DNA of 64,000 nucleotides, taken from NCBI GenBank assembly GCA_015228935.1, contig JADGCO010000005.1, positions 13,128-77,127 of the forward strand. The letters are read 5' to 3'. The translations under genes and the position numbers were made by a program. Shown here in pieces: positions 3,180-60,917 of the stretch. The stretch comes from Magnetococcales bacterium (GTDB lineage Bacteria; Pseudomonadota; Magnetococcia; Magnetococcales; DC0425bin3). The notes under the pieces are model-generated. The model was not told where the DNA came from. It ran no database searches and saw nothing but the letters and a program-made list of their open reading frames with translations. The stretch's first letter is position 1. Every line of letters starts with the position of its first letter.

Positions 3180-3243
3180 CAAGATCATTATTTTTTTGAA
3201 CTTATTAATTTAAATAACGACAGCAGGAGATAAAGGTACAAAC

Positions 3244-24478: not shown

Positions 24479-24509
24479 TTCAAAAATATTATGTTAAAAA
24501 ATATAAATC

Positions 24510-24634: not shown

Positions 24635-24686
24635 AGGTTGATATCCACAGTTTGAATAACATATCTCATGGAACGAGGCTGCTGAA

Positions 24687-29171: not shown

Positions 29172-29183
29172 GGATGCAGCAAG

Positions 29184-32677: not shown

Positions 32678-32717
32678 AATATTCAGATCAAATCACAAAC
32701 CGTCTCATCAATCAGCC

Positions 32718-33839: not shown

Positions 33840-33996
33840 TCATCCAGTCTTTCAAATATGTTTCAGGAAGTTCCAGATACCGATATCACAAACATCCGTT
33901 TGAATATCCATACAAATTTCACTGAAATTCAAGGTTATGCGTCGTGACCGTGGCGGGGATTTCGTAGTTTATACCAGACTGTATTCAAAATAAAAG

Positions 33997-34152
33997 GTGA
34001 ATATTCATCCCCCCATTAAAAAACGTTTGAAAAACCGGGATGAAAGTCCAGGAGGAAGCGGCTCTGCCCTTCCTCCTGGCTGGGTTTGGAGTGGATCCCC
34101 AACCCATCTTTAACATGCTTTGGCCATTTTTGGCAGGTTTTGGCGGGGTTGC
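33997..34152 (-). mobile_element. MITE-like element copy (156 bp, inverted orientation)
   Basis: The plus strand begins GTGAATATTCATCCCCCC, which is the right TIR in reverse orientation, and ends GGTTGC. The hairpin is CCAGGAGGAAG-(10 nt)-CTTCCTCCTGG at 34048..34079. Confidence 0.7.
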
Positions 34153-35015
34153 ATACTCCAACCTGTTGATTTGTTTGTATTGCATTTTTTTACTTCGTTT
34201 TGTAGTGCCATAATCTTTTCATGAAGCATTGACACCGTCGGCTTTTGTCATATCCAGGCGGGTATGTACATTCACCGCACACAAACTCGCAACACGGCCA
34301 CGGGTGAATCCTATTTCACTCACCGCTTGGTACGCTCTGAACGTTCAGGCACCAAAGTCAGACAGGTGACCCTCCTGAATCTTGGTCGTCATTTCAGAAT
34401 CGGCCAAGATCAGTAGCCAATGCTGTGAGCGTTACAAATCTGTGGAGCAAACATTTTGCCTCATCATCTCTGCCATGATTGACTGTTTGTGTAAAGTTTC
34501 TCAGATCAAGAACACAAAAAACACAGTCTTCAACAGAATCAAAGGCTTTAATTTTCAGATCACCATTGTTGCCAATCAAGTCATCCTTCCCCGGATTTGT
34601 CCCCAACCCGAAATTGCCCAGCCCAAGTAATATTCTTTCAATTCTTCCTGCTGGATAATTTCCCGGATAGGGATAAAGAACTTCTTATCCCGTCGCGCAT
34701 GATGTACCTGTCATCAGGCCAATCACGTCATCTGCGTCCGTGACATCCCCCCCTGCCTTCTTGACACCATCCATCCATTTGTCCAAATCTGACATTGACA
34801 AGTTCTCCTGATGATAATAAAGCATAAACTTACATACTGCTCAACAATTCAGATTATGTTATTAAACCCTTATAAATCCATGTCAATCATGATTTTCAAA
34901 AAAGCTTGTTTTTTTGCGGAAACAGACTAACAAATTGAAAAAGAATAACTTTTTTTATCCATGAACCTGTACAGCCGAGCCTGCTGAGATTACTGGCACT
35001 CTGTTTCAGGCAACG

Positions 35016-35047
35016 CCAGGAGGAGACGACCAACCGTCTCCTCCTGG
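35016..35047. repeat. solitary 13-bp-stem hairpin related to the MITE core
   Basis: CCAGGAGGAGACG-accaac-CGTCTCCTCCTGG, located ~70 nt downstream of the patatin-like gene stop. Confidence 0.8.
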
Positions 35048-35116
35048 TTTCCTGTTCAAAAACTTCGTACATTGCAACGAAATCTTTCAGAGCTGCAGAG
35101 TGAAAACATCGACCTT

Positions 35117-36310
35117 TCAACCCAGATGTGTTCTGGTATGGATATGTCCGCCCTGGCAGTGGTGGACACAGGCTCCTTGCAGAGCGGTCTTTTTTCTGCT
35201 GATCCAGGGAGAACCTTGGATGGCATGCAGCATGTCGGTATAGCCGGCGTCACAGCGATTTTTGACGGAAATCCGGGAAAACTCGTGCCCGGCTTCCGGG
35301 GGAATTCCCGGACCTGGTTGATATGAAACATGAATGATGTCCAGGTCATGAATCTGGTCCGGCTCACTCCCCGTTCCCATTCTTGTTCCTGGGACATCGC
35401 CGAAGATTTGTCTGAATTCTGCTTGGTGTGCCTGGGGTGCCTGGCGCAACAACTCCACAAGCATGCGCCGGGAGTTCCAACGCCGGGTTGTATTGCGGAT
35501 CTCCCTCTGAACCCGGGACGCATACCGAATCTGCGCCTCCCGAAACATCACATCATCCATCGTTTTCAATTCCGGACCCGTGGCCGAAAAAAGATCCACC
35601 ATGAATATCAGCAGGGAACCATTGACCGGGTTATCCAGAAACGTTTGCAAGGGCGTATTGGAGGCTACACCGCCATCCCAATACTGCTCCCCATCGATCA
35701 CCACAGGAGCGAATCCGGGTGGCAAGGCGCCACTGGCCAAGGTATGTTCCGGAGTCAGCTTTCTCTCCCGGTTGTCGAAAAATTTCAGTTCCCCTGTTGT
35801 CACCTTTGTCACTCCCAGGGACAAACGGGGCGCATGTTTGGAATTGATGTAGTCAAAATCCGCCAGTTCCAGGAGGGTTTGCCGCAGGGGGGAAGCATCC
35901 GCATAACTCAATGCATCGGGAGTTCCCGGGGGTGAAATCTGCGGTATGGGCGGTATCCGTGGAGAGAAAAAATGTGGCTGCCCGGTCAGTTGGGTTTGCA
36001 ATCCGCTCATTTTGATGAAGACCGTCGGGGAAAGATTGTACAACCACGCATCCCACCACGCACTGGGCCTGGTCACAATCTCCCAGAATTTTTCCAGTTG
36101 TTGCAGACGTTTATCTGGCGGATTGCCGGCCAGGATGGTGGCACCGACCGCACCGATGGAAATACCGGAGATCCATTCCGGCTCGAATCCCTTTTCGGTC
36201 ATGGCCCGATAACACCCCAATTGATAGGGTCCAAAAGCCGCCCCACCCTGTAGTGCCAATGCAACGTGCGGTTTGCCACCGCCATTCTGCCCCGATTTAT
36301 GCCCTGTCAT
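35117..36310 (-). CDS. patatin-like phospholipase family protein
   Basis: Oxyanion region is LALQGGAAFGPYQLG. The nucleophile elbow is GISIGA (GxSxG). The catalytic Asp motif is YWDGGVASNTP. Start taken at the ATG at 36310, which has a GGAGG ribosome-binding site. The ORF maximum uses a TTG at 36379. Confidence 0.8.
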   Translation of the reverse strand: MTGHKSGQNGGGKPHVALALQGGAAFGPYQLGCYRAMTEKGFEPEWISGISIGAVGATILAGNPPDKRLQQLEKFWEIVTRPSAWWDAWLYNLSPTVFIKMSGLQTQLTGQPHFFSPRIPPIPQISPPGTPDALSYADASPLRQTLLELADFDYINSKHAPRLSLGVTKVTTGELKFFDNRERKLTPEHTLASGALPPGFAPVVIDGEQYWDGGVASNTPLQTFLDNPVNGSLLIFMVDLFSATGPELKTMDDVMFREAQIRYASRVQREIRNTTRRWNSRRMLVELLRQAPQAHQAEFRQIFGDVPGTRMGTGSEPDQIHDLDIIHVSYQPGPGIPPEAGHEFSRISVKNRCDAGYTDMLHAIQGSPWISRKKTALQGACVHHCQGGHIHTRTHLG

Positions 36311-37655: not shown

Positions 37656-37949
37656 GGAAAACCTTCCCTTCCCGCAAAAATCCCGCCTTCACCTGCCACA
37701 ATGGCTGACTCCATGCACCGGGAAATCTGCAAAGATTTATCGGAAGAGTCCTCCCCGGCCCCGGTGGGTAACACAGGCCTGATCCGTCTGCACGGAAAAA
37801 AAGAGTGGCGATCAGGTCAGGAAAGGGCTACCACTTCCAGGTCAATTTCAGCTACCATGACCCGGAGATATTGGCGGGACTTTATTTTGATGGATTTTGA
37901 CGGCAGAGTTTGGAATCTACCCCAGCCACGCACGGAGCATTCGGCCACC

Positions 37950-39443
37950 ATGGACGGCAACCCGACATTGCCATTCGGAAAACACAAGGCAGACTGGATT
38001 TTTCTGGTTTTTCTGCTTTTGACGGTCTGTTACCAGACGCTTGCCTTCAATTTCGTACATCACGTCTATCCCCGTTTTGGATATCCTGTCGAAGATATTT
38101 TTGTTGGTCTTTCCCGAAATCTGTATGAGCGTGGTGTTTTTGCCGATAATTTCCGCAGCATGTACGAACAATCCATTTTTTCTGAAAACGACTTGTCAAA
38201 CAAATCCGCACCTGACCCGGCATCTGATAAAAAAATTCAATATAACACCTGGCGCACACCCTCCTATCCAATCTATGTCAGTGGCATCTACACCCTGTTT
38301 GGTGACCAGGAAATCAATGCCATCATATTCAATAATGGAATTTTATTTTTGTCGGTTATCCTGACCTTTTTCATGGGACGTCTCATCCATCCGGTGGCAG
38401 GTTTGCTGGTGGCCATGCTGACAATGGCCGATCCGATCTATATTCAAACCTCGAACACTTTTTTGGCGGACGAGGCATTCCACTTTCACATCGTGTTGTT
38501 TCTCCTGGCAGCCATCTGGATGTTCAAACATGGCGTAACCACGGGACGGGTTGCCTTGTGTGCTGTTTTTCTCGTCCTGCAAGAATATGTGCGGCCCTCC
38601 GGCATGTATCTCTGGATCGTCTTTTGCCTCTCCCTGATTTTTCACCTCTGGAATCAAGTCCCCAGACTCCAGATAGCCAAACTGGTCCTGCTGTTTCTGG
38701 CCATTCATTTTGCAGGTATTGGCATCTGGACCCTGCGCAACGTCATGGTGGGGGGCAGTGCCGATTTTGTAGGCATGCAAGGCTCCCACCTGGTTCGCTT
38801 CCATATGCCCCTGGTGATTGCGGAGCGGGATGGCATCAGTGAAAGCCAGGCCGGGGAAAAATTGTTCGCACCGCTCAATTCCCGGTTGGCACACATGAAA
38901 ACCACCCGCGAACGGGACGACTATCTGGGTCAGGTCGGACGCGAAATGATCCTGGAAAACTACCGCTTCTCTCTGCTGGTCATGATCAAAACAATGTTGC
39001 CGCGCCTCTTTTTTTCTCCACCGCCCGAACATCCGCCGGTTTTCACCGCCCTGGATCATTATCAGAAACTTCAGGATTATCTCCTCGCCCAGGAGGATGT
39101 CACCAGTCGCATGGAGCGCAACCGGAACGTCATCGCCTATCTTTTCCAGCATAAACACTGGGTTGTCCTGTATCAATTGTTCATGGCCAAGCTGGTCAAC
39201 CCCCTGCTGATCCTCTGTGCCTTGCTGGGATTTTGGCACATGATTCGCGGTACCGAACATAATTTTCGAACCATTGGCTGGTTTCTTTTTCTCTTCTGGG
39301 GGCAAATGACTCTCCTGCACCTGATCTATGCCCTGGCCCGCTACCGCATGCCCATCATGCCGGCGGTGTATCTTCTGGCCGTCTTTTTTGTGATCCAGAC
39401 AGCCCAAAAATGGCGTAAAAACAAAATGAGCCACCACCCCTGA
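37950..39443 (+). CDS. polytopic membrane protein, GT-C (ArnT/PMT_2)-like glycosyltransferase candidate
   Basis: About 10-12 hydrophobic segments. WRTPSYPIYVSGIY resembles the RPPLYP loop of PMT_2-type GT-C enzymes. The start is uncertain: the ORF opens at 37701 and 37950 (MDGNPTLPF) precedes the first transmembrane segment. Confidence 0.45.
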   Translation: MDGNPTLPFGKHKADWIFLVFLLLTVCYQTLAFNFVHHVYPRFGYPVEDIFVGLSRNLYERGVFADNFRSMYEQSIFSENDLSNKSAPDPASDKKIQYNTWRTPSYPIYVSGIYTLFGDQEINAIIFNNGILFLSVILTFFMGRLIHPVAGLLVAMLTMADPIYIQTSNTFLADEAFHFHIVLFLLAAIWMFKHGVTTGRVALCAVFLVLQEYVRPSGMYLWIVFCLSLIFHLWNQVPRLQIAKLVLLFLAIHFAGIGIWTLRNVMVGGSADFVGMQGSHLVRFHMPLVIAERDGISESQAGEKLFAPLNSRLAHMKTTRERDDYLGQVGREMILENYRFSLLVMIKTMLPRLFFSPPPEHPPVFTALDHYQKLQDYLLAQEDVTSRMERNRNVIAYLFQHKHWVVLYQLFMAKLVNPLLILCALLGFWHMIRGTEHNFRTIGWFLFLFWGQMTLLHLIYALARYRMPIMPAVYLLAVFFVIQTAQKWRKNKMSHHP

Positions 39444-39748: not shown

Positions 39749-41950
39749 TCAATTCCTGTGATCGCTGGCAACTTTTCTGGTCGGCGAATTTTCTTCCGGT
39801 GTGTTGGTCAGGATCAAGGTACCGGCTGCCGTGGCTTGGACCTGGCCGCTGGAATTCTGGCCAATCGATACCTGATAGGTGGCATGGGCTGCGAGACCAA
39901 AGATCAAGATCCGTTCCACTCCGGCGGGTGCCGGGGGCAAATTCAGGAGGGATTTTTCCCCGGCAGAGACAAAGGCCACGGCCAGATCGGCAATCTGCAC
40001 ACCCGGCATGGTGGCTGGATCGCCCCAGGCTGTCAGGGTTGGCAGAGGCTCTTTGGTGGCAAGACGTGGCAGCATCACGGCCAGAAAACCGTTTGGTACA
40101 GTTCCCTCGGGAACACGGGCTTCCACCCGCCAAGCTCCGGCATCAGCGGGAATGCGCCCGGCAGGGTGATGGTTTTGCCCGTCGGCACCACGAAAGGCCT
40201 CCAGGCCACCCACCACGCGCAAATCAGACGGTGATGGAAGCAGAAAATCCGTGCGCAACGTGGTCCGACCATTGCTGAACACCACATGCTGTTTTCCAAT
40301 CTCGGGTCGATTGATGCCGTGCAGCAACCAGACCGGTCGCAGCCCTGCCGGACCCATGGTCACGGCGTCATAAACCACCAGTACGGGTTGTGAAAATCCG
40401 GCAATGCGCCGAAGAAACAGAAAATGGCGCCGGAAATGGTGCAGGCTTCCGGCAGGATAGAGATTTTCGCCGCGACCGCGCACATAGGTATGGAGGGGAT
40501 AATCCTCGAATGCTTCAATGCCACCCTGGATGAACGCCGGATCCTGCAATTGTTGGACACTCTCCGGCGGTTTGGCGTCGTTTTGCTCGATCAGCAACGG
40601 ACTCCCGGATTTTTCCAAAACCAGAGTATTGTGGGCCACGGTGCGGGTGTAATAATTCCGCCAATGGTCGCTTTTGTAGGCGTCATAAACCCCGCTGTCC
40701 ACAGCCAAAGGTCCCTGGAGGGCCATTTCAAAGCTGTTGCCGTCCCGGTGGGCATGGTTGAAAAAACTCCAAGGGGTGGATTTGAACAGGACGGTCAGGG
40801 AGGATTCACCCTTGCCCAAGGCCCAGGTGTCCCGCATGACGGCGACCCCGGCCCGCTGGAAAAGACGGTTTTCCGGCAGGGTTTTCGGGTCGGTCGGTGC
40901 AACGTCCCGCCTTTTCCAGAGCAACTCCCAAATGCGCTCCTCTTCCCGCCCCCGATCCTTGAAACGGGCTTCCCACCAGGCAGCGATACCGTCATTCCAG
41001 ACATCCGCCACCTTGTAGAGAACCCGCAGCAAATGCGGCGAGGGTGTGGGGGAACGATTGTCGCCGCTCATGAAGACCGATCCGTCATCCTTGAGTCCAT
41101 AGAGGTGAAACAGAACGGCCTGTTGCAGCCATGGTTCGCGGGCAAACCAATCCTCTCCCAGGGCGGTGGCAGCCAGATCCAGAATCTGCGCCGTAACCAG
41201 ATGGTAGTAGCGGGAATATTCCCACCCCATGTGAAAACCGCCATCCATCTCTGCAATGAATCGGTAAAAAGGCAAAAAATGGTTTTCCAGATGGTCGAGA
41301 ATGAGGGGGAGGCGTTTTTCCATGGTCGGACTTTCGCCCTGTACGGCCAATGCTCCCATGAGAACCGTCAAATGGGCATGGTATTCGTGCCCCCCGGAAA
41401 CTCCCTTGAGTTCAAGTTGCTTTTTTTTCTCCAGCCACGTCGTGGCCTCTTCGATAAACTGGATCAACTGTTGTCTGGCGGTCGCATTCAGGCGGGGATG
41501 ACACCAATCGAACAGCATGGCGGCGGCTTCGAGCCGGTCGCGTACCCGCTGGTCATCCTTTTCCTCGCTCAGGGAGAGACGATTGGCCACGGCAAAGGCT
41601 GTCAGGGCTGCTTCCAGATGACCCTTGCCCGGTTTGATGGCATCGAGCAGGGCAAAAACCGGCATGGCCTTGTTGGCCTGGGCAGGATCCAGGTCCAGGA
41701 GCGTGACCCCATTCCACTTTTCCTGGGCATAACGCTGCAAGCGTTCATGGACATCCCGGGCATGTCCGGGTCTGGCCACCCGGGCCTGAAGGTCTGCCAG
41801 GCTTTCGGGTGTCAGGTAAAGCCGTGGATGGTGGGCAACCACCGTATGGGCCAGGGCTGGAACGGGAGCGACCACGACCCATGAAAAAGCCAGAAAAACA
41901 AGCACACACAACAGACGTCTCAGTTCAGAAACAAAGGCCTGCACCCTCAT
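39749..41950 (-). CDS. heparinase II/III-like (alginate-lyase-fold) periplasmic polysaccharide lyase family protein
   Basis: Signal peptide ends ...VVAPVPALA/HT. The N-terminal part reads as an alpha/alpha toroid-like region. The C-terminal part has HAHRDGNSFEMALQGPLAVDSGVYDAY...YYTRTVAHNTLVL, typical of Hepar_II_III. Confidence 0.7.
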   Translation of the reverse strand: MRVQAFVSELRRLLCVLVFLAFSWVVVAPVPALAHTVVAHHPRLYLTPESLADLQARVARPGHARDVHERLQRYAQEKWNGVTLLDLDPAQANKAMPVFALLDAIKPGKGHLEAALTAFAVANRLSLSEEKDDQRVRDRLEAAAMLFDWCHPRLNATARQQLIQFIEEATTWLEKKKQLELKGVSGGHEYHAHLTVLMGALAVQGESPTMEKRLPLILDHLENHFLPFYRFIAEMDGGFHMGWEYSRYYHLVTAQILDLAATALGEDWFAREPWLQQAVLFHLYGLKDDGSVFMSGDNRSPTPSPHLLRVLYKVADVWNDGIAAWWEARFKDRGREEERIWELLWKRRDVAPTDPKTLPENRLFQRAGVAVMRDTWALGKGESSLTVLFKSTPWSFFNHAHRDGNSFEMALQGPLAVDSGVYDAYKSDHWRNYYTRTVAHNTLVLEKSGSPLLIEQNDAKPPESVQQLQDPAFIQGGIEAFEDYPLHTYVRGRGENLYPAGSLHHFRRHFLFLRRIAGFSQPVLVVYDAVTMGPAGLRPVWLLHGINRPEIGKQHVVFSNGRTTLRTDFLLPSPSDLRVVGGLEAFRGADGQNHHPAGRIPADAGAWRVEARVPEGTVPNGFLAVMLPRLATKEPLPTLTAWGDPATMPGVQIADLAVAFVSAGEKSLLNLPPAPAGVERILIFGLAAHATYQVSIGQNSSGQVQATAAGTLILTNTPEENSPTRKVASDHRN

Positions 41951-42001: not shown

Positions 42002-44488
42002 TCAACCCGTAACCCGCAAGGCCTGCCGCAACTCGCCGGCTCGGCGCAGGTAGGGATGGCCCTTCTTCAGGGAAGCAGGGAGACGATGCAAAAAGGCCAA
42101 TCCCGCATCCATGTTGTCAAACTCACCCACCAGGATCATCAGGAGATTTTTCCCTGTGTTTTCATACATGAAGAGTTGATTTCGATCCAGAATATTCTTG
42201 TGATTGGCCAGGAGTTCCTCCAATTTTCCGGCACGGGCCGCTTGCAGATCAATGGCCATGAGATGGACAAGGTAGCGACCGCGGCCACTTTTGGACAGCA
42301 AAGCCTGCGTGGCCGCCTTGCGTTGCGCAATATAAGGGCTGTCCTGTCCACTCCTGGTCAGGTTCAACGATTCTGTAACTGGGGGAAGGATGACAGATGC
42401 CACCTGGGAGGGAAACCGTTGTGTCTCGTCGGTGTTTGCGGGTTTTGTGGAGGACTTTCCTGGGACTCCACCTGCCAAGGCAGGGTCTGGCATGCCGTTG
42501 GCTGACATCAGGTTTGTGGCGGGTCTGGTCTCCGGGACCGGATTTGTTGCCACAGAAAACCGGGCGATGGGTTTTTCATCGGTTACCGGCATCGTCTCTT
42601 GTGTCAATCTGCCGTTTGATGTCGGTCTTGTGTCGCGTTTCGGGTCGGTGTCTGGTGTCAATCTGCTGTTCGAGACCGGTTTTGTGTCGCGTTTCGGATG
42701 GGTGTCTGGAGCCAATTTTCCGTTCGGGATCGATTTTGCTTCATCGGCCACTTCCTTCTGCGCCTGCATGACTTCGGTCAGGACTTCATCGATGGGTGCC
42801 TGGAAATCTGTTGTGGGGAGTGTCCTATTGACATCGACCTTGTTTTCCGGTGCCTTGGGCAAGGGATTGGCCGTTTGGACAGAGGCTCCCGAATCCTGGC
42901 CCCTGGTCAATCGATCCGGAAGCGAAAAAGTCATCTTTCCCGGACCATCGGGATTGCCGGGAAGCAGGCTGACCACAACAATCCCGCCCAGAACAACCAA
43001 GCCGGCAAAAAGCGCCTTTTTGGACTGGAAAGGGGATGGTTTGCCGGCGGATCCGGAACGGTTGCCACGTTTTGGCCTGTCTGTTTCCATTTCGGGGACG
43101 GAAATGATGATGGGCAGGCCGAGAAAATGGGATATGTCGCTGGGTTGCTTGAAGGTTTGATCGATCTGGTTGTAGATGGCCATGACCGACAAGGCAAAGA
43201 AAAAGCCGAACACCAGACCGATGGCGATCAGTTTGGGGCGGTTGGGTGCAACCGGTGCGGGTTGCACCTTGGCCTTGCGCAACACCACCACATGCGAGTC
43301 GAATCCCTTGGATCCCCCTTGCAGATTGGACTCATCGCGGCGTTTGTAGAAGGTTTCGAATGAATAGGCCAACAAACCCGACTCCCGGTTGATCCGCTCC
43401 GAGGTCAACAAAAATCTTTTCAGGACAATATTGCGTTCATCCAGTTGGGCAATCTTGCTTTTGAGACCTTCGATCTGGGTTTGCACTGCGGCCAGGTCGG
43501 ACTCCCGCTTGGCCACAACTGATTCCACCTCGCCATAGAGCAGCTCTCGCGATTTGGCCACCTGTTTGGCAATGCCCACGGCCACCGGGCTGTCGGGCAG
43601 ATAGGTTTTATCAATCTCGACCTGCCGCAACAGCAGGGTTTGCAGGTTTGTTGACAGATTGCGCACGGTTTCTGTTTGTATGTAGGAAAACAATTGCGTT
43701 TTTTCACCGCCCAGGCCTGCCCGGATGGCCTGGATTTCGTTGGCAATGATGATGGCCTGGGAATCGAGGCCCTGAACAAGCTGGGAATAATCCTTGCGCA
43801 ACAGCAGGTTGTTCTGGATTTCCTGATCCGGGTTGGGAGCCTTCAGATCCCCCACCATGTGCATCAGATCGTCCTGTTTTCCCTTCCAATCTGACAGGTA
43901 GCTGTTCACCTGATCGGCCAGAAAGACCTCTTTGGCACCTGGATTCAGGATGCGATGGCGAAACTGCCGATACTCCTCCATCAATGCTTCCAGAATATTT
44001 TTGGCCTCTTTGGGATCATGCCAGCGCAGGGCCACTTCGATGACATTGGATGTGGGCAGGATGGCCGTTTCCAGTGACGCACCGACTGTCTTGGCCATGC
44101 CTTCCACGGGATCTCCCCTGCCGGCACCGGGTTCTCCGGATTGTTCTTTCAGGGCAATCCTTTTCTCGGCAAGCAGCCGTTGCACGGTATTGCGCACCAC
44201 ATCGTCAGAGACCAGCATTTGCACTTCGGAGTAGAGATCCTCTTTGGTCACGGGTTCGACGCGCAGCATGGTGTCTTCCAGGGTCTGGGCATCCCGCTCG
44301 GACCGTTTGCCTTTGATCAAAAAGGCCCCGTCTGCCTGCCAGACCGGCGGACTCAACAAGGCGATGGCCACAAAGCCGGAGAGTATCACCCCGGAGATCC
44401 AGAATATTGCCCGCCGAAAGGCAAAAAAGGTGAAGATCAAATCTTTCAGTAGGTATCCACCGGTACTGGCGTCCTGGCGACTCTGCAT
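42002..44488 (-). CDS. polysaccharide co-polymerase (Wzz/GumC-type) with extra TM, Pro/Thr-rich repeat linker and C-terminal SPOR-like domain
   Basis: TM1 is followed by a Wzz-like region and long coiled coils. TM2 (LIAIGLVFGFFFALSVMAIY) is followed by the LGLPIIISVPE tail. A third TM (LFAGLVVLGGIVVVSLL) comes next, then an 18-aa repeat linker. The C-terminus reads YLVHLMAI....LFMYENTGKNLLMILVGEFDNMDAGLAFLHRLPASLKKGHPYLRRAGELRQAL, a DamX-type SPOR pattern. Confidence 0.7.
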   Translation of the reverse strand: MQSRQDASTGGYLLKDLIFTFFAFRRAIFWISGVILSGFVAIALLSPPVWQADGAFLIKGKRSERDAQTLEDTMLRVEPVTKEDLYSEVQMLVSDDVVRNTVQRLLAEKRIALKEQSGEPGAGRGDPVEGMAKTVGASLETAILPTSNVIEVALRWHDPKEAKNILEALMEEYRQFRHRILNPGAKEVFLADQVNSYLSDWKGKQDDLMHMVGDLKAPNPDQEIQNNLLLRKDYSQLVQGLDSQAIIIANEIQAIRAGLGGEKTQLFSYIQTETVRNLSTNLQTLLLRQVEIDKTYLPDSPVAVGIAKQVAKSRELLYGEVESVVAKRESDLAAVQTQIEGLKSKIAQLDERNIVLKRFLLTSERINRESGLLAYSFETFYKRRDESNLQGGSKGFDSHVVVLRKAKVQPAPVAPNRPKLIAIGLVFGFFFALSVMAIYNQIDQTFKQPSDISHFLGLPIIISVPEMETDRPKRGNRSGSAGKPSPFQSKKALFAGLVVLGGIVVVSLLPGNPDGPGKMTFSLPDRLTRGQDSGASVQTANPLPKAPENKVDVNRTLPTTDFQAPIDEVLTEVMQAQKEVADEAKSIPNGKLAPDTHPKRDTKPVSNSRLTPDTDPKRDTRPTSNGRLTQETMPVTDEKPIARFSVATNPVPETRPATNLMSANGMPDPALAGGVPGKSSTKPANTDETQRFPSQVASVILPPVTESLNLTRSGQDSPYIAQRKAATQALLSKSGRGRYLVHLMAIDLQAARAGKLEELLANHKNILDRNQLFMYENTGKNLLMILVGEFDNMDAGLAFLHRLPASLKKGHPYLRRAGELRQALRVTG
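42601..42730. repeat. 54-bp (18-codon) tandem repeat inside the co-polymerase linker, ~2.4 units
   Basis: Units start at 42601 and 42655. They encode (A/T)PDT(H/D)PKRDT(K/R)P(V/T)SN(S/G)RL on the minus strand. Confidence 0.85.
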
Positions 44489-44524: not shown

Positions 44525-45625
44525 TCAAAGTCCAAGGCGATTTTTGGCCGGGACATTGTCCCAGGTCCATCCCATGCCCAGGTTCCACCCCCGGAACTGG
44601 AAGACGTCGGCCACCCGCCTGATGATATCGGAAGTTTCGGAAATGGGCATGTTGGGCACATAGACAATGTCATCCGGTTGCAGGAAAAAGTGCCCGGCTC
44701 CGGGTCCCAGGGTCAGGGTTTGTTCCAGGTTGACCCGTGTTCCCACCACCTTTTTCTGGTGTTTGCGGACCACAATAATGCTGTCCAGACGGGCATTGAC
44801 CAGACTTCCTCCCGCCAGGGCCATGGCCTCGGCCACCGTGGCCGGTTTGAGGATGGGGAATGCCCCGGGCCTGGCAACCTGTCCCAGGACATAGATGGGT
44901 GACCCGGCGTGCCGTTCGAGGAAGAGATCCACCTTCAGACTGGGGCTGATCTTGGCATACTGGGCATTCAGATGACTGCCCACCTCCTCAATGGTTTTAT
45001 CCCCCACAAGAACATCCCCGACCATGGGAAAGGTGGTAAAGCCATCCGGACGCACGGTCACAAGCCGGCTTAAGCCCCGGGAAGCGGTATGAAGGTCAAC
45101 CTTCAATTCCCGGATTTGACTCAGGTATTCTGGAACAAGAACATAGATTTCCGGTTTGCGGAATATTTTTGAATAGCGTTCGGTCAACTCTTTTTCCACC
45201 ACACGCACCGAACGCCCCGCCACCTGCACTTCGCCCAGATAGGGTAATGAAATATTGCCATCGGGCCGGATTTTCTGGGTTTCGTTCAATTCCGGATTGG
45301 TGACAAACTTGATGGTGACGGTGTCACCCAGATTGAGATGGAATTCCACCTCTTTCTGCCAGCTTTGGATGGAAAACAGCACGTCCAATTGATCCCCGGG
45401 GGCAATGCGATATTCAGAAAAAATCCGAAAATCTCCGTTTGAAAAGGAGAACGATGATTGTTCCAGGGTGACTTCTTCACCGGTTTTGATGGGAATCGGA
45501 TCCTTGCCTGCACATCCCGGGAAAATCAGGATCAACCCCAGCAGCAGGGAGAGACCAGCCCCCATGCCCAGGCGCAGAGAGGCTGCCATCCATTTGCTGG
45601 AAAGAATGCCATCTTTGTGGCTCAT
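44525..45625 (-). CDS. Wza-like polysaccharide export lipoprotein (Poly_export + SLBB)
   Basis: Lipobox-like IFPGC. The Poly_export region has YRIAPGDQLDV. A repeated SLBB-like segment has V.V.G.V..PG. Confidence 0.75.
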   Translation of the reverse strand: MSHKDGILSSKWMAASLRLGMGAGLSLLLGLILIFPGCAGKDPIPIKTGEEVTLEQSSFSFSNGDFRIFSEYRIAPGDQLDVLFSIQSWQKEVEFHLNLGDTVTIKFVTNPELNETQKIRPDGNISLPYLGEVQVAGRSVRVVEKELTERYSKIFRKPEIYVLVPEYLSQIRELKVDLHTASRGLSRLVTVRPDGFTTFPMVGDVLVGDKTIEEVGSHLNAQYAKISPSLKVDLFLERHAGSPIYVLGQVARPGAFPILKPATVAEAMALAGGSLVNARLDSIIVVRKHQKKVVGTRVNLEQTLTLGPGAGHFFLQPDDIVYVPNMPISETSDIIRRVADVFQFRGWNLGMGWTWDNVPAKNRLGL

Positions 45626-45637
45626 GAAATCTGCCTC

Positions 45638-46381
45638 CTACAACCACCGGAATACAAAACGCGGAATATGAAACACCCGCCGATTGAGGACCACACCCAA
45701 CACGTTGCCATGAATGCGCCGGAGCAGATCGAGGGATTCATGCACCACCACCCGCTTGGTGGATTCACAGCGGATCACCAGGATGACGCCCTGAAAATCG
45801 GCGGTGGCCAGGGTTGCCCCGGAACTGGTCATCAGGGAGGAGGAGTCCAGAATCACGTAATCGCAGGTGTCCCGCAGTCTGGTGATGAGTTCCTTGAAAC
45901 CGGTCTGGGAAAACAAATCGCCTCTGTGGTTGACATCCCCGAATGGCAGCACTTTCAGACCCGGCACATGGGTTTCACACACGGCAGTTTCCAGAGACGC
46001 CGTGCCTGTCAATACGCCCACCAGTCCGGGTGTCTCGGGAATCTGAAAAACACGGGCCAATGCCGGGCTTTTGTCATTGCCATCCACGAGTACCACCCGG
46101 GTGTTGGCCTGGGTGACCAGACCATAAGCCAGGGCCACAGCCGTTGTCGTCTTGCCTTCCTTGGGCAGTGCCGACGATACGATCAAGGTCCGGAGATCCT
46201 TCCCCTCCGAGGCTGAGAGCAGATTGCCGCGAATGCGGGACATTTCGTGGTTCAATTTGGGCACGATCTGCCAGATCATATCCGTCGGATCCTTGTTCAC
46301 GTTGGTTTCTCTCCTGCCGGTGTTTCCTGCCCCGTGAGCATGCGGTTTTCTCTCCAACCCAATATCCAGGCCGTTAAGCAA
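45638..46381 (-). CDS. CpsD/CapB-type bacterial tyrosine kinase (stand-alone BY-kinase ATPase)
   Basis: Walker A is SALPKEGKTTTA, Walker A' is VLVDGN and Walker B is YVILDSS. The start is uncertain: TTG at 46381, GTG at 46300 or ATG at 46279. No obvious C-terminal Tyr cluster was seen. Confidence 0.7.
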   Translation of the reverse strand: MLNGLDIGLERKPHAHGAGNTGRRETNVNKDPTDMIWQIVPKLNHEMSRIRGNLLSASEGKDLRTLIVSSALPKEGKTTTAVALAYGLVTQANTRVVLVDGNDKSPALARVFQIPETPGLVGVLTGTASLETAVCETHVPGLKVLPFGDVNHRGDLFSQTGFKELITRLRDTCDYVILDSSSLMTSSGATLATADFQGVILVIRCESTKRVVVHESLDLLRRIHGNVLGVVLNRRVFHIPRFVFRWL

Positions 46382-46418
46382 ATTTCATTCCGATCTGGAG
46401 AATGATTAAAAAAACCGT

Positions 46419-46461
46419 GTAACTGTTTCAGGCTTTTCTTGAAAGGCTGCTGGATAGTTAC
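46419..46461 (-). mobile_element. 43-bp internally deleted MITE derivative (both TIRs joined)
   Basis: The sequence is GTAACTGTTtCAGGCTTTTCTTGAAAGGCTGCTGGATAGTTAC. This is the left TIR fused to the last ~34 bp of the 158-bp element. Confidence 0.75.
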
Positions 46462-46599
46462 GATACCGTTTCGATTTGAATCGTTTTTCAGGTCATTATT
46501 CCATGCAGAAGTTGCCGCTGCCATCCCATGTAACCGAGATACGGCACGAAAATTGCTTTTCATCTTCCTCCGTTCCTCCGTCCAAAGGCATTCTGCACC

Positions 46600-48969
46600 A
46601 TGAAAATGTTCCCACCCCGCTTGATTGTGCTGTTGCTGGTCACCCTGTTCGTGCTGGATGCCCGTCTCTCGCCGGCGCAGCCTGGCACGACCGGGCAACC
46701 CGACAGGCAGGGAGCGCTTTCGCCGACCCTGGAGCAATTTTTGCGCGGTGAAACCGAGCGGGGAGGCACAGTCCTGCGTTTTGACCATGACAGCGACGCA
46801 TTGACTCCGGCAGCCCGGGAACGCCTGGATCAGATTGCGCGTGCCCTGACGGCCAATCCCAAAATCAACATCCATATCGAGGGACATGCCTCGGCCCCTG
46901 GCAGCGATGCCTACAACATGGACCTCTCCCGGCGTCGTGCCGAAGCGGTGGTTCGCTATCTCCAGGAAAACCACCCTCTTCCGGCCTTGCGTTTTTCCAT
47001 GGTGGCCCGGGGAAAACAGGAACCCGCCAATCCGCAGAATACCCCGGAAGCCCAGGCAGAGAATCGCCGGGTCCGGCTGGCCATGCAGATACCCGATCTG
47101 GTTCTGGGTGTGGGCGGCATGGCACCACGTCCCCTGATTTTGACGCCCGATCATCGTTTCGTCATCGGTACCAGGCAGGGGGTTGTGCGTCTCTGGGATC
47201 TGAATGCCGGTTGCACGTACACGGAGTTGCCCAATCCGGGCACCATCGTCAATGCCATGGCCATATCTCCCAACGGTCGCGTTCTGCTGACCGGTGACGA
47301 TGATGCTGTCTTGCGTCTGTGGGATTTGGAAACCGGTGTGGTTCTGCACGATTTTACCGGCCATGCCGGTCCGGTGACCGCCATCACCTTTGCCCACAAA
47401 CTCGGTCTGGAAATGCTCTCCGGTGGGGGGGATGGTTCCGTCAAATTGTGGAATCTGGAGTCAGGGCTGCATCTGCGGAATTATGCGGGACATCAGGGAA
47501 CCGTCACTGCCCTGGCAACCATTCCCGGTGGGCGGCGTTTCCTTTCATCCGGCATGGATGGCAAGGTGGTCTTCTGGGATTTGTCCACCGGTGATGTACT
47601 CCTTGAATTCAAGGGTCATGAGGGGCCTGTTTTTTCCCTGGCCGTATCTCCAGACGGACATTTGGGAGCATCGGGTGGGGCCGACGGGACCATCCGTTTA
47701 TGGAAACTCGACCTGAATCCGAATCTCGCCCAACCTGAACCCCGTATTTTCAGGGCACATGACGGAGCCGTGACCGGCATCGCATTTCTCAAGGGGGGGC
47801 ACCAACTCGTTTCAGTGGGTCATGATGGTACCACCCGGGTCTGGGATGTGGCCACCAATCGCCTGTTACACAAATTTTCTTCTTCTCACCCTGTTCAGTC
47901 CGTGGCCGTGGATGTCACCGGTTCCCTTTACCTGTCCGGTGAGGAAAATGGGGCTGTCCGCATGGCAAGCCTGGAGACTGGATCTGCGGTCAGATCCTTC
48001 ACTTTTGCCGATCCCGGTCCTCCGATTCCCATGGGAAAGGTCTCGGGAGAATCCTGGACCCCGCCCGGCTCGACCACCCCATTCATCTGGGTGGGCGGTG
48101 GCTGTTATCAGCAGGGGTGCTCGCCGGTCATCGGCCAGTGCAGCTTTGACAACCAGCCCGCGCATGAGGTGTGCGTCAAAGGCTTCTGGCTTGCCCGCCA
48201 TGAGGTCACCCAGGCCGAATGGATCCGGACCCTGGACTTCAATCCTTCGAATCATCAGATGGGTGGTGATTATCCGGTGGAGCGGATCTCCTGGATGGCT
48301 GCCCGGCATTATCTTTGCCGTCTGAATGGGGCCGGTCCGGTGCGCTACCGTCTGCCCACCGAAGCCGAGTGGGAATATGCCTGCCGGGGAGGCGGCAAGA
48401 TGGAAGGGGTGCAGAGCAACTACCAGTCTTATCCTGCCTCGACAAGCGATGCTTCCGCCGCCCAGGCCCGGACACCGGAGAGCAGACCCTATGTCACGGA
48501 CGATGCAACGCCCGCAGAGGAGCCTGCTCCGGAAGATTTGACCAAAAAAGAGGTCACCCGGGAGCCTTATCCCCCGGTCACCCAGGGGCGTGCCAATTCA
48601 TTGGGATTGCTCAACATGAACGGCAACGTGTGGGAATGGGTCGCCGACTTTTATGACCGTGATGGTTACACCCGGCTGAATCGCGACAATCCCGTCCATG
48701 CCGGAGATATCGACTACCAGATGTTGAAAAGTGCCTACTCGCGTGTCGAACGTGGTGGTTCCTGGGACGTGGGTGCCCGCCCGGTCGGTTGCCTCTACCG
48801 GGATCATGACTACCCGGGATTCAGGAGCTTTTATCTGGGCATGCGTCTTCTGCTCGTGCCCGACCCGGATACCGGCACAAACACAAACACCCCGACAACG
48901 GCAACGTCGCCACCCATGACCGATACGGGATCGTCTCCCGCTGCAAATGCCGGGAAAGACAAAAACTGA
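46600..48969 (+). CDS. secreted OmpA-like / WD40 beta-propeller / FGE-sulfatase (SUMF1-like) fusion protein
   Basis: Signal peptide is MKMFPPRLIVLLLVTLFVLDARLSPA. The OmpA_C-like region has NIHIEGHASAPGSDAYNMDLSRRRAEAVVRYL. About 7 WD40 units follow (GH.G.V.A..F...L.SGG.DG..+LW). The C-terminus has RLPTEAEWEYACRGG ... NVWEWVADFY ... RGGSW, typical of the FGE-sulfatase fold. Confidence 0.8.
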   Translation: MKMFPPRLIVLLLVTLFVLDARLSPAQPGTTGQPDRQGALSPTLEQFLRGETERGGTVLRFDHDSDALTPAARERLDQIARALTANPKINIHIEGHASAPGSDAYNMDLSRRRAEAVVRYLQENHPLPALRFSMVARGKQEPANPQNTPEAQAENRRVRLAMQIPDLVLGVGGMAPRPLILTPDHRFVIGTRQGVVRLWDLNAGCTYTELPNPGTIVNAMAISPNGRVLLTGDDDAVLRLWDLETGVVLHDFTGHAGPVTAITFAHKLGLEMLSGGGDGSVKLWNLESGLHLRNYAGHQGTVTALATIPGGRRFLSSGMDGKVVFWDLSTGDVLLEFKGHEGPVFSLAVSPDGHLGASGGADGTIRLWKLDLNPNLAQPEPRIFRAHDGAVTGIAFLKGGHQLVSVGHDGTTRVWDVATNRLLHKFSSSHPVQSVAVDVTGSLYLSGEENGAVRMASLETGSAVRSFTFADPGPPIPMGKVSGESWTPPGSTTPFIWVGGGCYQQGCSPVIGQCSFDNQPAHEVCVKGFWLARHEVTQAEWIRTLDFNPSNHQMGGDYPVERISWMAARHYLCRLNGAGPVRYRLPTEAEWEYACRGGGKMEGVQSNYQSYPASTSDASAAQARTPESRPYVTDDATPAEEPAPEDLTKKEVTREPYPPVTQGRANSLGLLNMNGNVWEWVADFYDRDGYTRLNRDNPVHAGDIDYQMLKSAYSRVERGGSWDVGARPVGCLYRDHDYPGFRSFYLGMRLLLVPDPDTGTNTNTPTTATSPPMTDTGSSPAANAGKDKN

Positions 48970-56900: not shown

Positions 56901-57277
56901 AGACCAATCCTGAACAGTGCGCCACTCTGCTCCAGGAGGCAGGGACCGAGTTGACCCGTCTGTTCCAGGTTCTGGACCAGGTCTTGCCAGGGGAAAAAGC
57001 CGCTGATCCGGTGCAGTCTGTCGGGGAAGAGTCCACCGCATCCCTGGCCAGCCGGGATGCCTTGTTGAAAAAAATTGCCGGCCAGTTGGTCATCTACGAT
57101 GCTGCCGTGGAAGAGACCATCCAGATTCTGGGTGGGTTGCCCTTGTCCCGGGAAACCCTGGACCGGGTCAGGATTCTGAAACAACAGGTTGCCCAATATG
57201 ATTATGATGGGGCCATGGCCACAATCCAACAATGTGCCAAAGACCTGCATGTTGATTTGGAGACCGCAAATGCCTGA
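53912..57277 (+). CDS. membrane hybrid sensor histidine kinase (TM - periplasmic domain - TM/HAMP - HisKA - HATPase - REC - REC - Hpt)
   Basis: Two transmembrane segments bracket a ~230-aa periplasmic region. The H-box is [16 protein letters not shown] and the ATP-binding region has [10 protein letters not shown]. The receivers have [11 protein letters not shown] and [11 protein letters not shown]. The Hpt has [12 protein letters not shown]. Confidence 0.9.
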
Positions 57278-60911: not shown

Positions 60912-60917
60912 TCTCAC

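What the first reader, a model, noticed from the sequence alone, without database searches (positions are those of the whole stretch)
42002..44488. Wzz-type co-polymerase with a third TM, an 18-aa tandem-repeat Pro/Thr/Lys/Asp linker and a C-terminal SPOR-like domain
After the canonical TM1, periplasmic coiled coil and TM2 with the LGLPIIISVPE tail, the protein does not stop or continue into a kinase. It re-crosses the membrane (LFAGLVVLGGIVVVSLL). About 200 aa of Pro-rich linker follow, including a 54-bp DNA tandem repeat at 42601-42730. The protein ends in ~85 aa matching the DamX/FtsN SPOR pattern: Y.V.L.A...(alpha)...hh..G.F.....A......LP......P.h+.

The topology places the SPOR-like domain in the periplasm, which is consistent with binding denuded glycan strands. 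I do not recall a described PCP-SPOR fusion.
Basis: partly seen in the sequence, partly recalled or inferred. Interest (0 to 1): 0.55.

Follow-up and report, generated by a model that had tools for sequence, protein, structure and literature searches.

The report
Polysaccharide co-polymerase fused to SPOR domain
A protein of a magnetotactic coccus that helps assemble and export a surface polysaccharide carries an extra membrane pass, a long floppy linker and a cell-wall-binding (SPOR) domain, which probably ties the export machine to the cell wall; this combination appears not to have been described before.

Summary
ORF 42002-44488 (-) encodes an 828-aa protein, a hypothetical protein of the Magnetococcus sp. 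DMHC-1 MAG. Residues 1-~470 are a divergent polysaccharide co-polymerase (PCP) with no kinase domain. Evidence: NCBIfam PCP models (E 8e-17), a family profile matching PslE and Wzc in the PDB, and Foldseek top hits Wzc/WzzE/KpsE. It lies in an operon with a BY-kinase-like ATPase, an OPX exporter and a heparinase II/III-like lyase.

A K/R-rich loop, a third hydrophobic helix (492-510), a ~200-aa Pro/Thr-rich linker with an 18-aa x2.6 repeat, and a ~110-aa C-terminal domain follow.

Pfam's SPOR model does not match that domain directly. It is nevertheless a DamX-type SPOR domain:
- All ten of its remote homologues that I tested hit PF05036.
- Their profile hits the DamX SPOR structure 2LFV (E 4e-15).
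- The AlphaFold model (pLDDT 92.6) has 2LFV as its best PDB match.

Caveat: the one highly conserved glycan-contacting Gln of SPOR is His here.

Eight relatives were recovered. Seven are ordinary two-helix PCPs. The eighth, the Magnetococcales orthologue, keeps helix 3 and the tail but has no SPOR. One related locus has an unrelated SPOR domain fused to the kinase partner instead. I rate this a new variant of a known kind and moderately interesting. Peptidoglycan binding is inferred, not shown.

The parts
42002..44488 (-). Whole gene: 828-aa PCP - TM3 - linker - SPOR fusion protein (NCBI: hypothetical protein H7833_02440, Magnetococcus sp. DMHC-1 MAG)
   Evidence: ORF list; a 100% identical database protein; AAGGA-like RBS upstream of the ATG
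44348..44410 (-). TM1 (about aa 27-47), preceded by a short cytoplasmic N-terminus
   Evidence: Hydropathy peak 2.39; AF2 helix 11-45
43232..44347 (-). Periplasmic PCP domain (about aa 48-419): alpha/beta base plus long helical hairpin
   Evidence: NCBIfam PCP models; profile hits to PslE and Wzc; AF2 strands 49-59, 139-156 and 399-408 and helices 183-387; Foldseek top hits Wzc/WzzE/KpsE
43169..43231 (-). TM2 (about aa 420-440), preceded by the Pro-rich PAPVAPNRPK motif
   Evidence: Hydropathy peak 2.64; AF2 helix 417-445; P415 and N416 invariant among the family members aligned in A3
43016..43168 (-). Cytoplasmic loop (aa 441-491). It holds the conserved PCP C-tail DQTFKQPSDISHFLGLPIIISVPE, then a K/R-rich stretch
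   Evidence: Alignment with canonical PCPs that end about 10 aa after this motif; 8 K/R against 5 D/E counted from the sequence. No SD-like sequence before the internal ATG of M466
42959..43015 (-). TM3 (aa 492-510), the extra membrane pass that returns the chain to the periplasm
   Evidence: Hydropathy 2.49; AF2 helix 487-507, low confidence; an equivalent helix in orthologue P0002
42338..42958 (-). Pro/Thr/Asp/Lys-rich, probably disordered periplasmic linker (aa 511-717)
   Evidence: Composition; AF2 pLDDT below 40 over 511-560
42597..42738 (-). 54-bp tandem repeat, 2.6 copies, encoding an 18-aa repeat inside the linker
   Evidence: TRF score 179, 80% matches; unit comparison
42005..42337 (-). 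DamX-type SPOR domain (aa 718-828): alphaN-beta-alpha-beta-beta-alpha-beta-alphaC. His742 (nt 42263-42265) sits where SPOR domains have their conserved Gln
   Evidence: Exhaustive phmmer hits, all ten tested carrying PF05036; profile against DamX 2LFV, E 3.8e-15; leave-query-out profile 78 bits; AF2 pLDDT 92.6; Foldseek top hit 2LFV, then CwlC and RlpA SPOR
44525..45625 (-). Partner: OPX (Wza-like) polysaccharide export protein, immediately upstream in the same orientation
   Evidence: Pfam Poly_export 1.8e-30 and SLBB; TIGR03027 1.6e-31
45638..46381 (-). Partner: separate BY-kinase-like P-loop ATPase. The true start is probably an internal Met. It has no tyrosine in its C-terminal tail
   Evidence: AAA_31; TIGR01007 2.5e-30 and TIGR03018 6.8e-29; alignment with relatives
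39749..41950 (-). Downstream gene in the same orientation, 51 nt away: heparinase II/III-like polysaccharide lyase with a signal-peptide-like N-terminus
   Evidence: Pfam Hepar_II_III_C 1.8e-15; HepB-like 8e-38; intergenic sequence

Best explanation
The gene encodes the polysaccharide co-polymerase (PCP) of a Wzx/Wzy-type exopolysaccharide or capsule export machine. Its partners, a separate BY-kinase-like ATPase and an OPX exporter, lie in the same operon.

A complete 'bitopic SPOR protein' module has been fused onto the PCP's normally cytoplasmic C-terminus. The module consists of a K/R-rich juxtamembrane stretch, one transmembrane helix, a ~200-aa disordered Pro/Thr-rich linker and a DamX-type SPOR domain.

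The third helix sends the chain back into the periplasm. The linker is long enough to reach the peptidoglycan layer. The SPOR domain binds glycan strands of the sacculus, most likely peptide-free ones. The PCP oligomer, and with it the PCP-OPX conduit, is thereby tethered to the cell wall. It may also be positioned at sites rich in such strands, such as the septum or new poles.

Shown here:
- the architecture
- the PCP and SPOR homologies and predicted folds
- the operon context

Inferred:
- the topology, from hydropathy and the positive-inside rule
- peptidoglycan binding, by analogy with every characterised SPOR domain
- the tethering or localising role
For: PCP identity. Operon partners: with the same kinase-OPX-PCP order in relatives.

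Three hydrophobic helices and a K/R-rich TM2-TM3 loop.

SPOR identity:
- 21 significant hits in an exhaustive search of 1.8 billion proteins.
- All ten tested carry PF05036, most above Pfam's threshold.
- One family member sits in the aroK-aroB-damX position.
- The family profile hits the DamX SPOR structure at 3.8e-15.
- A profile built without the query scores the query at 78 bits.
- The AF2 model has pLDDT 92.6 and a beta-alpha-beta-beta-alpha-beta core.
- Its best PDB matches are DamX, then CwlC SPOR; RlpA SPOR appears further down the list.

Residues 470-828 reproduce the commonest SPOR-protein layout of TM anchor, low-complexity linker and SPOR (PMC6895207, introduction).

The positions equivalent to DamX W416 and K418, which lie in the glycan site or basic patch (bioRxiv 10.1101/2022.07.01.498525; PMC6895207), are Tyr and Arg here.

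Independent support for a functional link comes from related locus L007. There the PCP is canonical, but the kinase partner carries an N-terminal periplasmic SPOR-like domain, a repeat linker and a TM. That SPOR-like domain has no detectable similarity to this one. SPOR therefore seems to have been recruited to this machine twice, by different fusions.

The orthologue P0002 also reads through the PCP end into a third helix and a Pro-rich tail. The extension is therefore not a sequencing artefact.
Against: Pfam's SPOR model does not match the domain directly.

The only highly conserved, ligand-contacting residue of SPOR domains is the beta1 Gln (RlpA Q270 = DamX Q351; PMC6895207). It is His742 here, whereas all 19 aligned homologues keep Gln. 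The positions of DamX S354 and W385 are Ala and Leu.

No binding, localisation or topology experiment exists.

Only one sequence with this exact architecture was found, from a metagenome-assembled genome. The closest orthologue has the helix and tail but no SPOR.

The L007 SPOR assignment is borderline (20.8 bits against a cut-off of 21).
Confidence: 0.6

Rival explanations
1. The C-terminal domain has the SPOR fold but no longer reads peptidoglycan. It binds another glycan or a protein. The candidate would be the machine's own nascent, probably uronic-acid- and hexosamine-containing polymer, or the OPX partner. It would then act in product hand-off, chain-length control or complex assembly rather than wall anchoring.
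For: The conserved glycan-contacting Gln is His. The DamX S354 and W385 equivalents are Ala and Leu (PMC6895207). A heparinase II/III-like lyase lies in the operon. This suggests an acidic glycosaminoglycan-like product, chemically not far from a peptide-free GlcNAc-MurNAc strand.
Against: Every SPOR domain characterised so far binds denuded peptidoglycan (bioRxiv 10.1101/2022.07.01.498525). Most glycan contacts are made by the backbone, which explains the low sequence conservation (PMC6895207). His can still form hydrogen bonds. The Tyr and Arg equivalents of DamX W416 and K418 are kept. The layout of TM, long linker and SPOR is the one used by wall-binding SPOR proteins.
Confidence: 0.2
2. 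The fusion is not a single protein in the cell. There would be two products, a normal PCP and a DedD/DamX-like bitopic SPOR protein starting at Met466. They would appear joined because of an assembly or sequencing error in the MAG, or because of an internal translation start.
For: Canonical relatives end about 10 aa after the SVPE motif. Met466 directly precedes a segment that looks like the N-terminus of a bitopic SPOR protein. The source is a MAG represented by one sequence.
Against: The frame is open and continuous. No Shine-Dalgarno-like sequence precedes the internal ATG. A 33%-identical orthologue from a different MAG also reads through the same junction into a third helix and a Pro-rich tail.
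Confidence: 0.05
3. The third hydrophobic segment does not span the membrane. The tail and the SPOR-fold domain would then stay in the cytoplasm, where the domain acts as an RNP-like or ferredoxin-like interaction module, for example with the kinase-like ATPase.
For: AF2 confidence for helix 487-507 is low. No experimental topology exists. The RNP-like fold is widespread, and many weak Foldseek hits are to cytoplasmic ferredoxin-like proteins.
Against: The segment is 19 strongly hydrophobic residues (score 2.49, comparable with TM1 and TM2) with KK on one side and PGNPDG on the other. The domain's homologues are periplasmic SPOR domains of DamX-like and ExeA-like proteins that sit behind a TM helix. 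A Pro/Thr-rich low-complexity linker is typical of periplasmic SPOR proteins (PMC6895207).
Confidence: 0.05

Closest known systems
Kinase-less PCPs of proteobacterial EPS loci (EpsF / XrtA-PEP-CTERM chain-length determinant TIGR03007; PslE; the periplasmic part of Wzc)
   Same: Two TM helices flank a periplasmic alpha/beta base and a long helical hairpin. A Pro-rich motif precedes TM2. A conserved short cytoplasmic tail follows TM2. A separate BY-kinase-like ATPase and an OPX gene are adjacent.
   Different: All curated models match far below their cut-offs (for example 60.6 bits against 278.85), so this is a divergent lineage. Those proteins end about 10 aa after the tail motif. This one adds TM3, a 200-aa linker and a SPOR domain.
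E. coli DamX (and DedD/FtsN): bitopic SPOR proteins of the divisome
   Same: [quoted passage not shown] The SPOR domain is of the DamX type, with flanking helices and the LPxxL...P(Y/W)x(R/K) C-terminal motif. The best sequence-profile and structural match is 2LFV.
   Different: The module is attached to a polysaccharide co-polymerase rather than standing alone. It has no detectable DamX cytoplasmic domain. The conserved beta1 Gln is His, and DamX S354 and W385 are Ala and Leu. No link to cell division is shown.
ExeA/GspA-like AAA ATPases with a C-terminal periplasmic wall-binding domain (nearest NCBIfam model: XrtA/PEP-CTERM-associated ATPase, TIGR03015)
   Same: Several of the nearest homologues of the query's SPOR domain (P0012, P0019, P0021, P0023) are the C-termini of such ATPases, behind one TM helix. 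The logic is the same: an inner-membrane component of a trans-envelope machine carries a wall-binding domain on a periplasmic tether.
   Different: The carrier protein differs (AAA_22 ATPase against PCP). The TIGR03015 matches are below cut-off. From my own knowledge, the characterised ExeA uses a PF01471-type wall-binding domain rather than SPOR.
SPOR-linker-TM-kinase protein of metagenomic locus L007 (3301-4884)
   Same: It belongs to the same kinase-OPX-PCP gene family and gene order. A periplasmic SPOR-like domain sits on a repeat-containing low-complexity linker attached to an inner-membrane component of the machine.
   Different: The SPOR-like domain is N-terminal, behind a signal-like sequence. 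It is on the kinase partner, not the PCP. It belongs to a different SPOR subtype with no detectable similarity to the query's domain, and it keeps the beta1 Gln (YYTLQLATF). Its Pfam score is borderline.

Membership tests
Polysaccharide co-polymerase (PCP; Wzz/Wzc/PslE superfamily) | Two transmembrane helices flanking a large periplasmic domain, with both ends of that unit cytoplasmic | tested here: met
   Hydropathy peaks at 27-45 and 420-438; AF2 helices 11-45 and 417-445. Orientation is inferred from charge distribution.
Polysaccharide co-polymerase (PCP; Wzz/Wzc/PslE superfamily) | Periplasmic fold: membrane-proximal alpha/beta base plus long antiparallel helical hairpin | tested here: met
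   AF2 model of aa 1-560 (mean pLDDT 67; 80-97 over the hairpin). Foldseek top hits are all PCPs: Wzc 3.5e-13, WzzE, KpsE and Wzz. TM-scores are low (about 0.25-0.5) because helix angles differ.
Polysaccharide co-polymerase (PCP; Wzz/Wzc/PslE superfamily) | Match to a curated family model at its curated threshold | tested here: not met
   Pfam Wzz 14.5 bits (cut-off 25.5) and GNVR 17.5 (27.7). TIGR03007 60.6 (278.85) and TIGR03017 45 (422.75). The E-values (8e-17, 6e-12) and the profile hits to PslE and Wzc are nevertheless significant. This is a divergent member of the superfamily, not of any curated equivalog.
Polysaccharide co-polymerase (PCP; Wzz/Wzc/PslE superfamily) | Proline-rich motif just before TM2 | tested here: met
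   PAPVAPNRPKLIAIGLVFG at 409-427, read directly from the sequence. P415 and N416 are invariant in alignment A3.
Polysaccharide co-polymerase (PCP; Wzz/Wzc/PslE superfamily) | Gene neighbourhood with an OPX exporter and a BY-kinase-type ATPase | tested here: met
   the same gene order in L001, L004, L006 and L007.
PCP-2a (Wzc-type, kinase fused) | C-terminal cytoplasmic BY-kinase domain in the same polypeptide | tested here: not met
   No P-loop or AAA_31 match in the 828-aa protein. The kinase-like ATPase is a separate gene at 45638-46381.
SPOR domain (Pfam PF05036) | Match to the Pfam SPOR model at gathering threshold | tested here: not met
   No SPOR hit for the whole protein at E<=1 or for the isolated 116 aa at E<=10.
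SPOR domain (Pfam PF05036) | Homology to bona fide SPOR domains | tested here: met
   phmmer E 2e-6 to 1e-3 against 1.8 billion proteins. 10 of 10 tested hits carry PF05036 in the aligned region, with up to 142 bits. The profile against DamX 2LFV gives 3.8e-15. A profile without the query scores it at 78 bits. The hits were chosen by similarity to the query, so that score is somewhat circular.
SPOR domain (Pfam PF05036) | RNP-like beta-alpha-beta-beta-alpha-beta fold | tested here: met
   AF2 pLDDT 92.6, pTM 0.84. Elements: E27-35, H36-50, E60-65, E70-78, H81-89, E101-104, plus flanking helices. Foldseek: 2LFV DamX SPOR E 5.7e-4, prob 1.0, TM 0.50/0.54; 1X60 CwlC SPOR prob 0.91; 6I05 RlpA SPOR TMt 0.57. 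This is a predicted structure, not a solved one.
SPOR domain (Pfam PF05036) | Conserved Gln in strand beta1 that hydrogen-bonds NAM/NAG (RlpA Q270, DamX Q351) | tested here: not met
   The query has His742 (YLVHLMAI). 19 of 19 aligned homologues have Gln. The role of the Gln is taken from PMC6895207.
SPOR domain (Pfam PF05036) | Extracytoplasmic location | tested here: inconclusive
   Predicted periplasmic from three hydrophobic helices and a K/R-rich TM2-TM3 loop. No dedicated topology predictor or experiment was available.
SPOR domain (Pfam PF05036) | Binds peptidoglycan glycan strands lacking stem peptides | not testable with these tools
   Requires a sacculus pull-down or ITC with the purified domain.

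The most novel reading that the evidence does not exclude
SPOR domains have been recruited repeatedly, and by different fusions, to the inner-membrane core of one family of Wzx/Wzy-type export machines: to the PCP here, and to the kinase partner in L007. In the most novel version, the His-for-Gln variant in this protein does not read the cell wall at all. It would read the machine's own acidic, hexosamine-containing product, which chemically resembles a peptide-free peptidoglycan strand. It would then act as a tethered periplasmic product sensor or chain-length ruler on a repeat-adjustable linker.
Probability: 0.08. Interest if true: 0.8.

Novelty: new variant of a known kind. Interest (0 to 1): 0.45.

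Why it matters
How large trans-envelope polysaccharide export machines (PCP-OPX conduits) pass through the peptidoglycan mesh, and are positioned in it, is poorly understood. A PCP that carries its own wall-binding domain suggests that wall anchoring can matter for these machines. So does a related locus that puts a different SPOR domain on the kinase partner. Because SPOR domains normally mark septal or new-pole wall, anchoring might also be used to place secretion at particular sites.

The protein offers a simple testable handle: delete or swap the SPOR domain and ask whether export, chain length or localisation changes. The natural Gln-to-His variant can also be used to test how far the SPOR glycan site tolerates change.

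If the domain simply binds peptidoglycan as expected, the finding is a modest extension of two well-known families.

Tried and rejected
1. Direct hmmscan of the whole protein and of the isolated C-terminus against Pfam and NCBIfam gave no SPOR hit. phmmer of the C-terminus against PDB sequences gave nothing. Homology was only reachable through the exhaustive 1.8-billion-protein search.

2. The word-indexed homologue searches were shallow for this divergent protein. They gave 3, 7 and 11 significant hits and no second PCP-SPOR fusion. That is weak evidence of rarity, not proof.

3. Genome and metagenome scans with PCP peptide patterns found 7 relatives. Six were long enough to judge and all six are canonical 2-TM PCPs; L008 is only a 90-residue fragment. 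My first script wrongly read through stops and suggested an 876-aa PCP fusion in L005. The ORF list showed two separate genes, a PCP of 456 aa and a glycosyltransferase.

4. An HMM of the query's SPOR family found no other copy in the window or in loci L001-L009. It does not detect the L007 SPOR, which is a different subtype.

5. ORF 46297-47397 (-) was rejected as a gene. It lies wholly inside the well-supported + strand OmpA-WD40-FGE gene.

The PCP model was therefore built on a 7-row alignment and is of medium quality, especially for TM3.

7. The CapA1 C-tail match that would support kinase activation by the TM2-proximal tail is not significant (E 0.17). I use it only as a lead.

8. Literature searches for SPOR together with PCP, Wzz, Wzc, PEP-CTERM or exopolysaccharide found no description of such a fusion.
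Full report
**1. What is there**

The minus-strand ORF 42002-44488 is open for 828 codons from an ATG. The ATG is preceded by an AAGGA-like ribosome-binding site. The identical protein is in NCBI as a hypothetical protein (H7833_02440) of the metagenome-assembled genome Magnetococcus sp. DMHC-1, a freshwater magnetotactic coccus.

A hydropathy scan finds three strongly hydrophobic 19-residue segments, at 27-45, 420-438 and 492-510. By my count from the sequence, the 441-491 loop between the second and third contains 8 Lys/Arg and 5 Asp/Glu.

Residues 511-712 are 13% Pro and 12% Thr, and 72% of them are polar or Pro residues. Tandem Repeats Finder reports a 54-bp unit, 2.6 copies and 80% matches at 42597-42738. 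This encodes NGKLAPDTHPKRDTKPVS / NSRLTPDTDPKRDTRPTS / NGRLTQETMPVTDEKPIA.

**2. The N-terminal 470 residues are a polysaccharide co-polymerase**

- Pfam's Wzz and GNVR models match only weakly (E 0.047 and 0.004, below threshold).
- NCBIfam's chain-length-determinant models match significantly although far below their curated cut-offs: TIGR03007 at 8e-17, and TIGR03017 at 6e-12 over residues 15-462.
- A profile of the protein and two relatives hits the solved PCPs PslE (2.9e-19) and Wzc (1.7e-12).
- An AlphaFold model of residues 1-560 was built on a shallow 7-row alignment (mean pLDDT 67, but 80-97 over the long helices). It shows TM1, a small beta/alpha base, a long helical hairpin and TM2.
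- The best PDB matches of that model are all PCPs: Wzc 3.5e-13, WzzE, KpsE and Wzz.

The gene sits between an OPX exporter (Poly_export + SLBB, 44525-45625) and a signal-peptide-bearing heparinase II/III-like lyase (39749-41950). A separate BY-kinase-like ATPase (45638-46381) heads the row. The same kinase-OPX-PCP order is found in relatives.

So 'does not continue into a kinase' is normal for this class, in which the kinase is a separate protein.

**3. The extension beyond TM2**

Seven relatives were recovered from genomes and metagenomes. One (L008) is only a 90-residue fragment. The other six (L002-L007) are 456-479 aa long and stop about 10 residues after the conserved tail motif (D-x-[ST]-F-K-x-P-x-D ... 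LP.I.S[VI]P).

Only the two Magnetococcales proteins read on. The 33%-identical orthologue P0002 lies in a syntenic locus and is complete within its contig. It has a third hydrophobic helix and a ~120-aa Pro-rich tail but no folded C-terminal domain.

Two independent assemblies thus read through the same junction, and no Shine-Dalgarno-like sequence precedes the internal Met466. I therefore regard the fusion as real rather than an assembly artefact or two genes.

**4. The C-terminal domain is a SPOR domain**

Direct profile searches fail. There is no PF05036 hit even at E<=10, and no PDB sequence hit.

An exhaustive phmmer search of 1.84 billion representative proteins with the last 116 residues gave 21 hits besides the query itself, at E 2e-6 to 1e-3. 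I scanned ten of them, and all ten carry PF05036 in the aligned region, most above Pfam's threshold. Their architectures include:
- tandem-SPOR proteins
- TPR-SPOR proteins
- small SPOR-only proteins that sources call DamX
- ExeA/GspA-like AAA ATPases with a TM and a C-terminal SPOR

One member of the wider family (P0032) occupies the aroK-aroB-damX position.

Further evidence:
- The family profile hits the DamX SPOR structure 2LFV at 3.8e-15.
- A profile built without the query scores the query at 78 bits. The hits were selected by similarity to the query, so this is partly circular.
- AlphaFold with this alignment gives a confident model (pLDDT 92.6, pTM 0.84). It has an N-terminal helix, a beta-alpha-beta-beta-alpha-beta core and a C-terminal helix.
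- Foldseek ranks DamX SPOR first (E 5.7e-4, probability 1.0) and CwlC SPOR second. RlpA SPOR also appears in the list.

The domain is of the DamX subtype and about 110 aa long.

**5. A deviation that matters**

The structural work on RlpA SPOR shows that most glycan contacts come from the backbone. The one highly conserved side chain is a beta1 glutamine (RlpA Q270, equivalent to DamX Q351). It hydrogen-bonds NAM and NAG, and a basic patch sits nearby (PMC6895207).

In the alignment all 19 homologues keep that Gln. The query has His742 (YLVHLMAI). I located the following DamX residues from the 2LFV alignment and its numbering:
- S354 and W385 correspond to Ala and Leu in the query.
- W416 and K418 correspond to Tyr and Arg. 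W416 is described as part of the glycan site in bioRxiv 10.1101/2022.07.01.498525, and K418 as part of the basic patch in PMC6895207.

The site is thus partly conserved and partly altered. Binding to peptide-free glycan strands is plausible but cannot be assumed.

**6. Topology and mechanism**

PCPs have both ends in the cytoplasm (established for Wzz and Wzc). An odd third helix preceded by a K/R-rich loop should put everything after residue 510 in the periplasm (inference).

Residues ~470-828 then reproduce the commonest layout of SPOR proteins: a membrane anchor, a disordered low-complexity linker and a SPOR domain (PMC6895207, introduction). The simplest reading is that a DedD/DamX-like module was fused to the PCP.

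Since PCPs form oligomers, the machine would carry several wall-binding domains on ~200-residue tethers, easily long enough to reach the sacculus. The likely consequence is anchoring of the PCP-OPX conduit to the wall. Because SPOR ligands are enriched at septa and new poles, the machine might also be placed there. The conserved tail after TM2 is retained as a cytoplasmic loop, so contact with the separate ATPase need not be lost (inference).

**7. An independent pointer to function**

In the metagenomic locus L007 (same gene order, PCP 29% identical and canonical), the kinase partner is a 527-aa protein with this layout:
- a signal-like N-terminus
- a SPOR-like segment (YYTLQLATF...; PF05036 20.8 bits, E 5e-4, just under the cut-off of 21)
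- a linker with four QPLxESNT repeats
- a TM helix followed by RKRPGKTKR
- the BY-kinase-like domain

This SPOR-like segment shows no similarity to the query's domain.

If the assignment holds, SPOR domains were attached to this machine twice, to different subunits and from different SPOR subtypes. That argues for a selected link between this export system and the wall rather than an accident. Other relatives (L004, L006) have plain soluble kinases.

**8. Comparison with what is known, and novelty**

Both parts belong to well-studied families: the PCP superfamily, and SPOR of the DamX subtype. The carrier-plus-wall-binding-domain logic has a precedent in ExeA/GspA-type ATPases, and some of these carry the same SPOR subtype.

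I found no paper that mentions a SPOR domain together with a polysaccharide co-polymerase. Papers combining 'SPOR domain' with Wzz, Wzc, PEP-CTERM or exopolysaccharide do not describe such a protein. No second example turned up in the limited sequence searches available.

I could not run a database-wide architecture query, so 'undescribed' is safer than 'unique'. I classify it as a new variant of a known kind.

**9. Verdict**

- Architecture: confidence about 0.95.
- Wall-tether mechanism: confidence about 0.6.
- Interest is moderate, 0.45. It is a neat, testable fusion that bears on how export machines relate to the wall, but it is built from familiar parts and so far seen in one MAG.

Noticed in passing
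L007:3301-4884 (metagenome contig Ga0180007_10000347): In a related kinase-OPX-PCP locus the BY-kinase-like partner carries extra N-terminal parts ahead of the ATPase domain. These are a signal-like sequence, a SPOR-like segment (PF05036 20.8 bits), a QPLxESNT x4 repeat linker and a TM helix. This is a different way of attaching SPOR to the same machine.
   Followed up: partly
window 45638-46381 (-): The BY-kinase-like ATPase of the operon has no tyrosine in its C-terminal tail (…NRRVFHIPRFVFRWL). Its relatives in L001, L004, L006 and L007 have 2-3 (…RKYYIPRIFYG, …RRYHVPAFVYGK, …RRFYIPRLFYGRK). The whole family has D-G/L-N where I would expect the Walker A' DxD. It may be a non-autophosphorylating ATPase or a pseudokinase.
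   Followed up: partly
window 46600-48969 (+); L002:4422-6149: A 789-aa OmpA + WD40 beta-propeller + FGE-sulfatase-domain protein is transcribed divergently from the export operon. The Methylomarinum locus with a related PCP also encodes a protein a few genes downstream that, by eye, looks like a WD40 + FGE-sulfatase protein (no domain search was run on it). This may be a conserved association of unknown meaning.
   Followed up: no
window 39749-41950 (-): A heparinase II/III-like lyase with a signal-peptide-like N-terminus lies 51 nt downstream of the PCP-SPOR gene. The orthologous locus L001 has a Bac_transf initiating transferase at that position instead. No glycosyltransferase, Wzx or Wzy gene was seen next to the operon in the window.
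   Followed up: partly
L001:5549-7447 (protein P0002, Magnetococcales MAG): The closest orthologue has the third hydrophobic helix and a ~120-aa Pro/Ala-rich periplasmic tail but ends without a SPOR domain. It may be an intermediate or a degenerate form of the architecture.
   Followed up: partly
window 51741-53915 (+) and 53912-57277 (+): A 724-aa protein fuses a TRAP-type DctP solute-binding domain to a Peripla_BP_6 binding domain. The next gene overlaps it and encodes a hybrid histidine kinase (dCache-HisKA-HATPase-2xREC-Hpt). This looks like an unusual double binding-protein sensor pair.
   Followed up: no
window 24687-33839 and 53912-62054: The window is dense in large hybrid histidine kinases with several REC, PAS, GAF and Hpt domains. 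It also has two REC-SpoIIE (PP2C phosphatase) response regulators, at 32646-33839 and 60918-62054.
   Followed up: no
window 2001-4000 and 24001-36000: G+C content drops to 45% at 2-4 kb and to 47-51% over 24-36 kb, against 54-61% elsewhere. I did not examine this further.
   Followed up: no
window 37701-39443 (+): A 580-aa multi-pass membrane protein converges on the operon. It has no Pfam or NCBIfam hit. By eye its sequence resembles ArnT/PMT-type glycosyltransferases.
   Followed up: no
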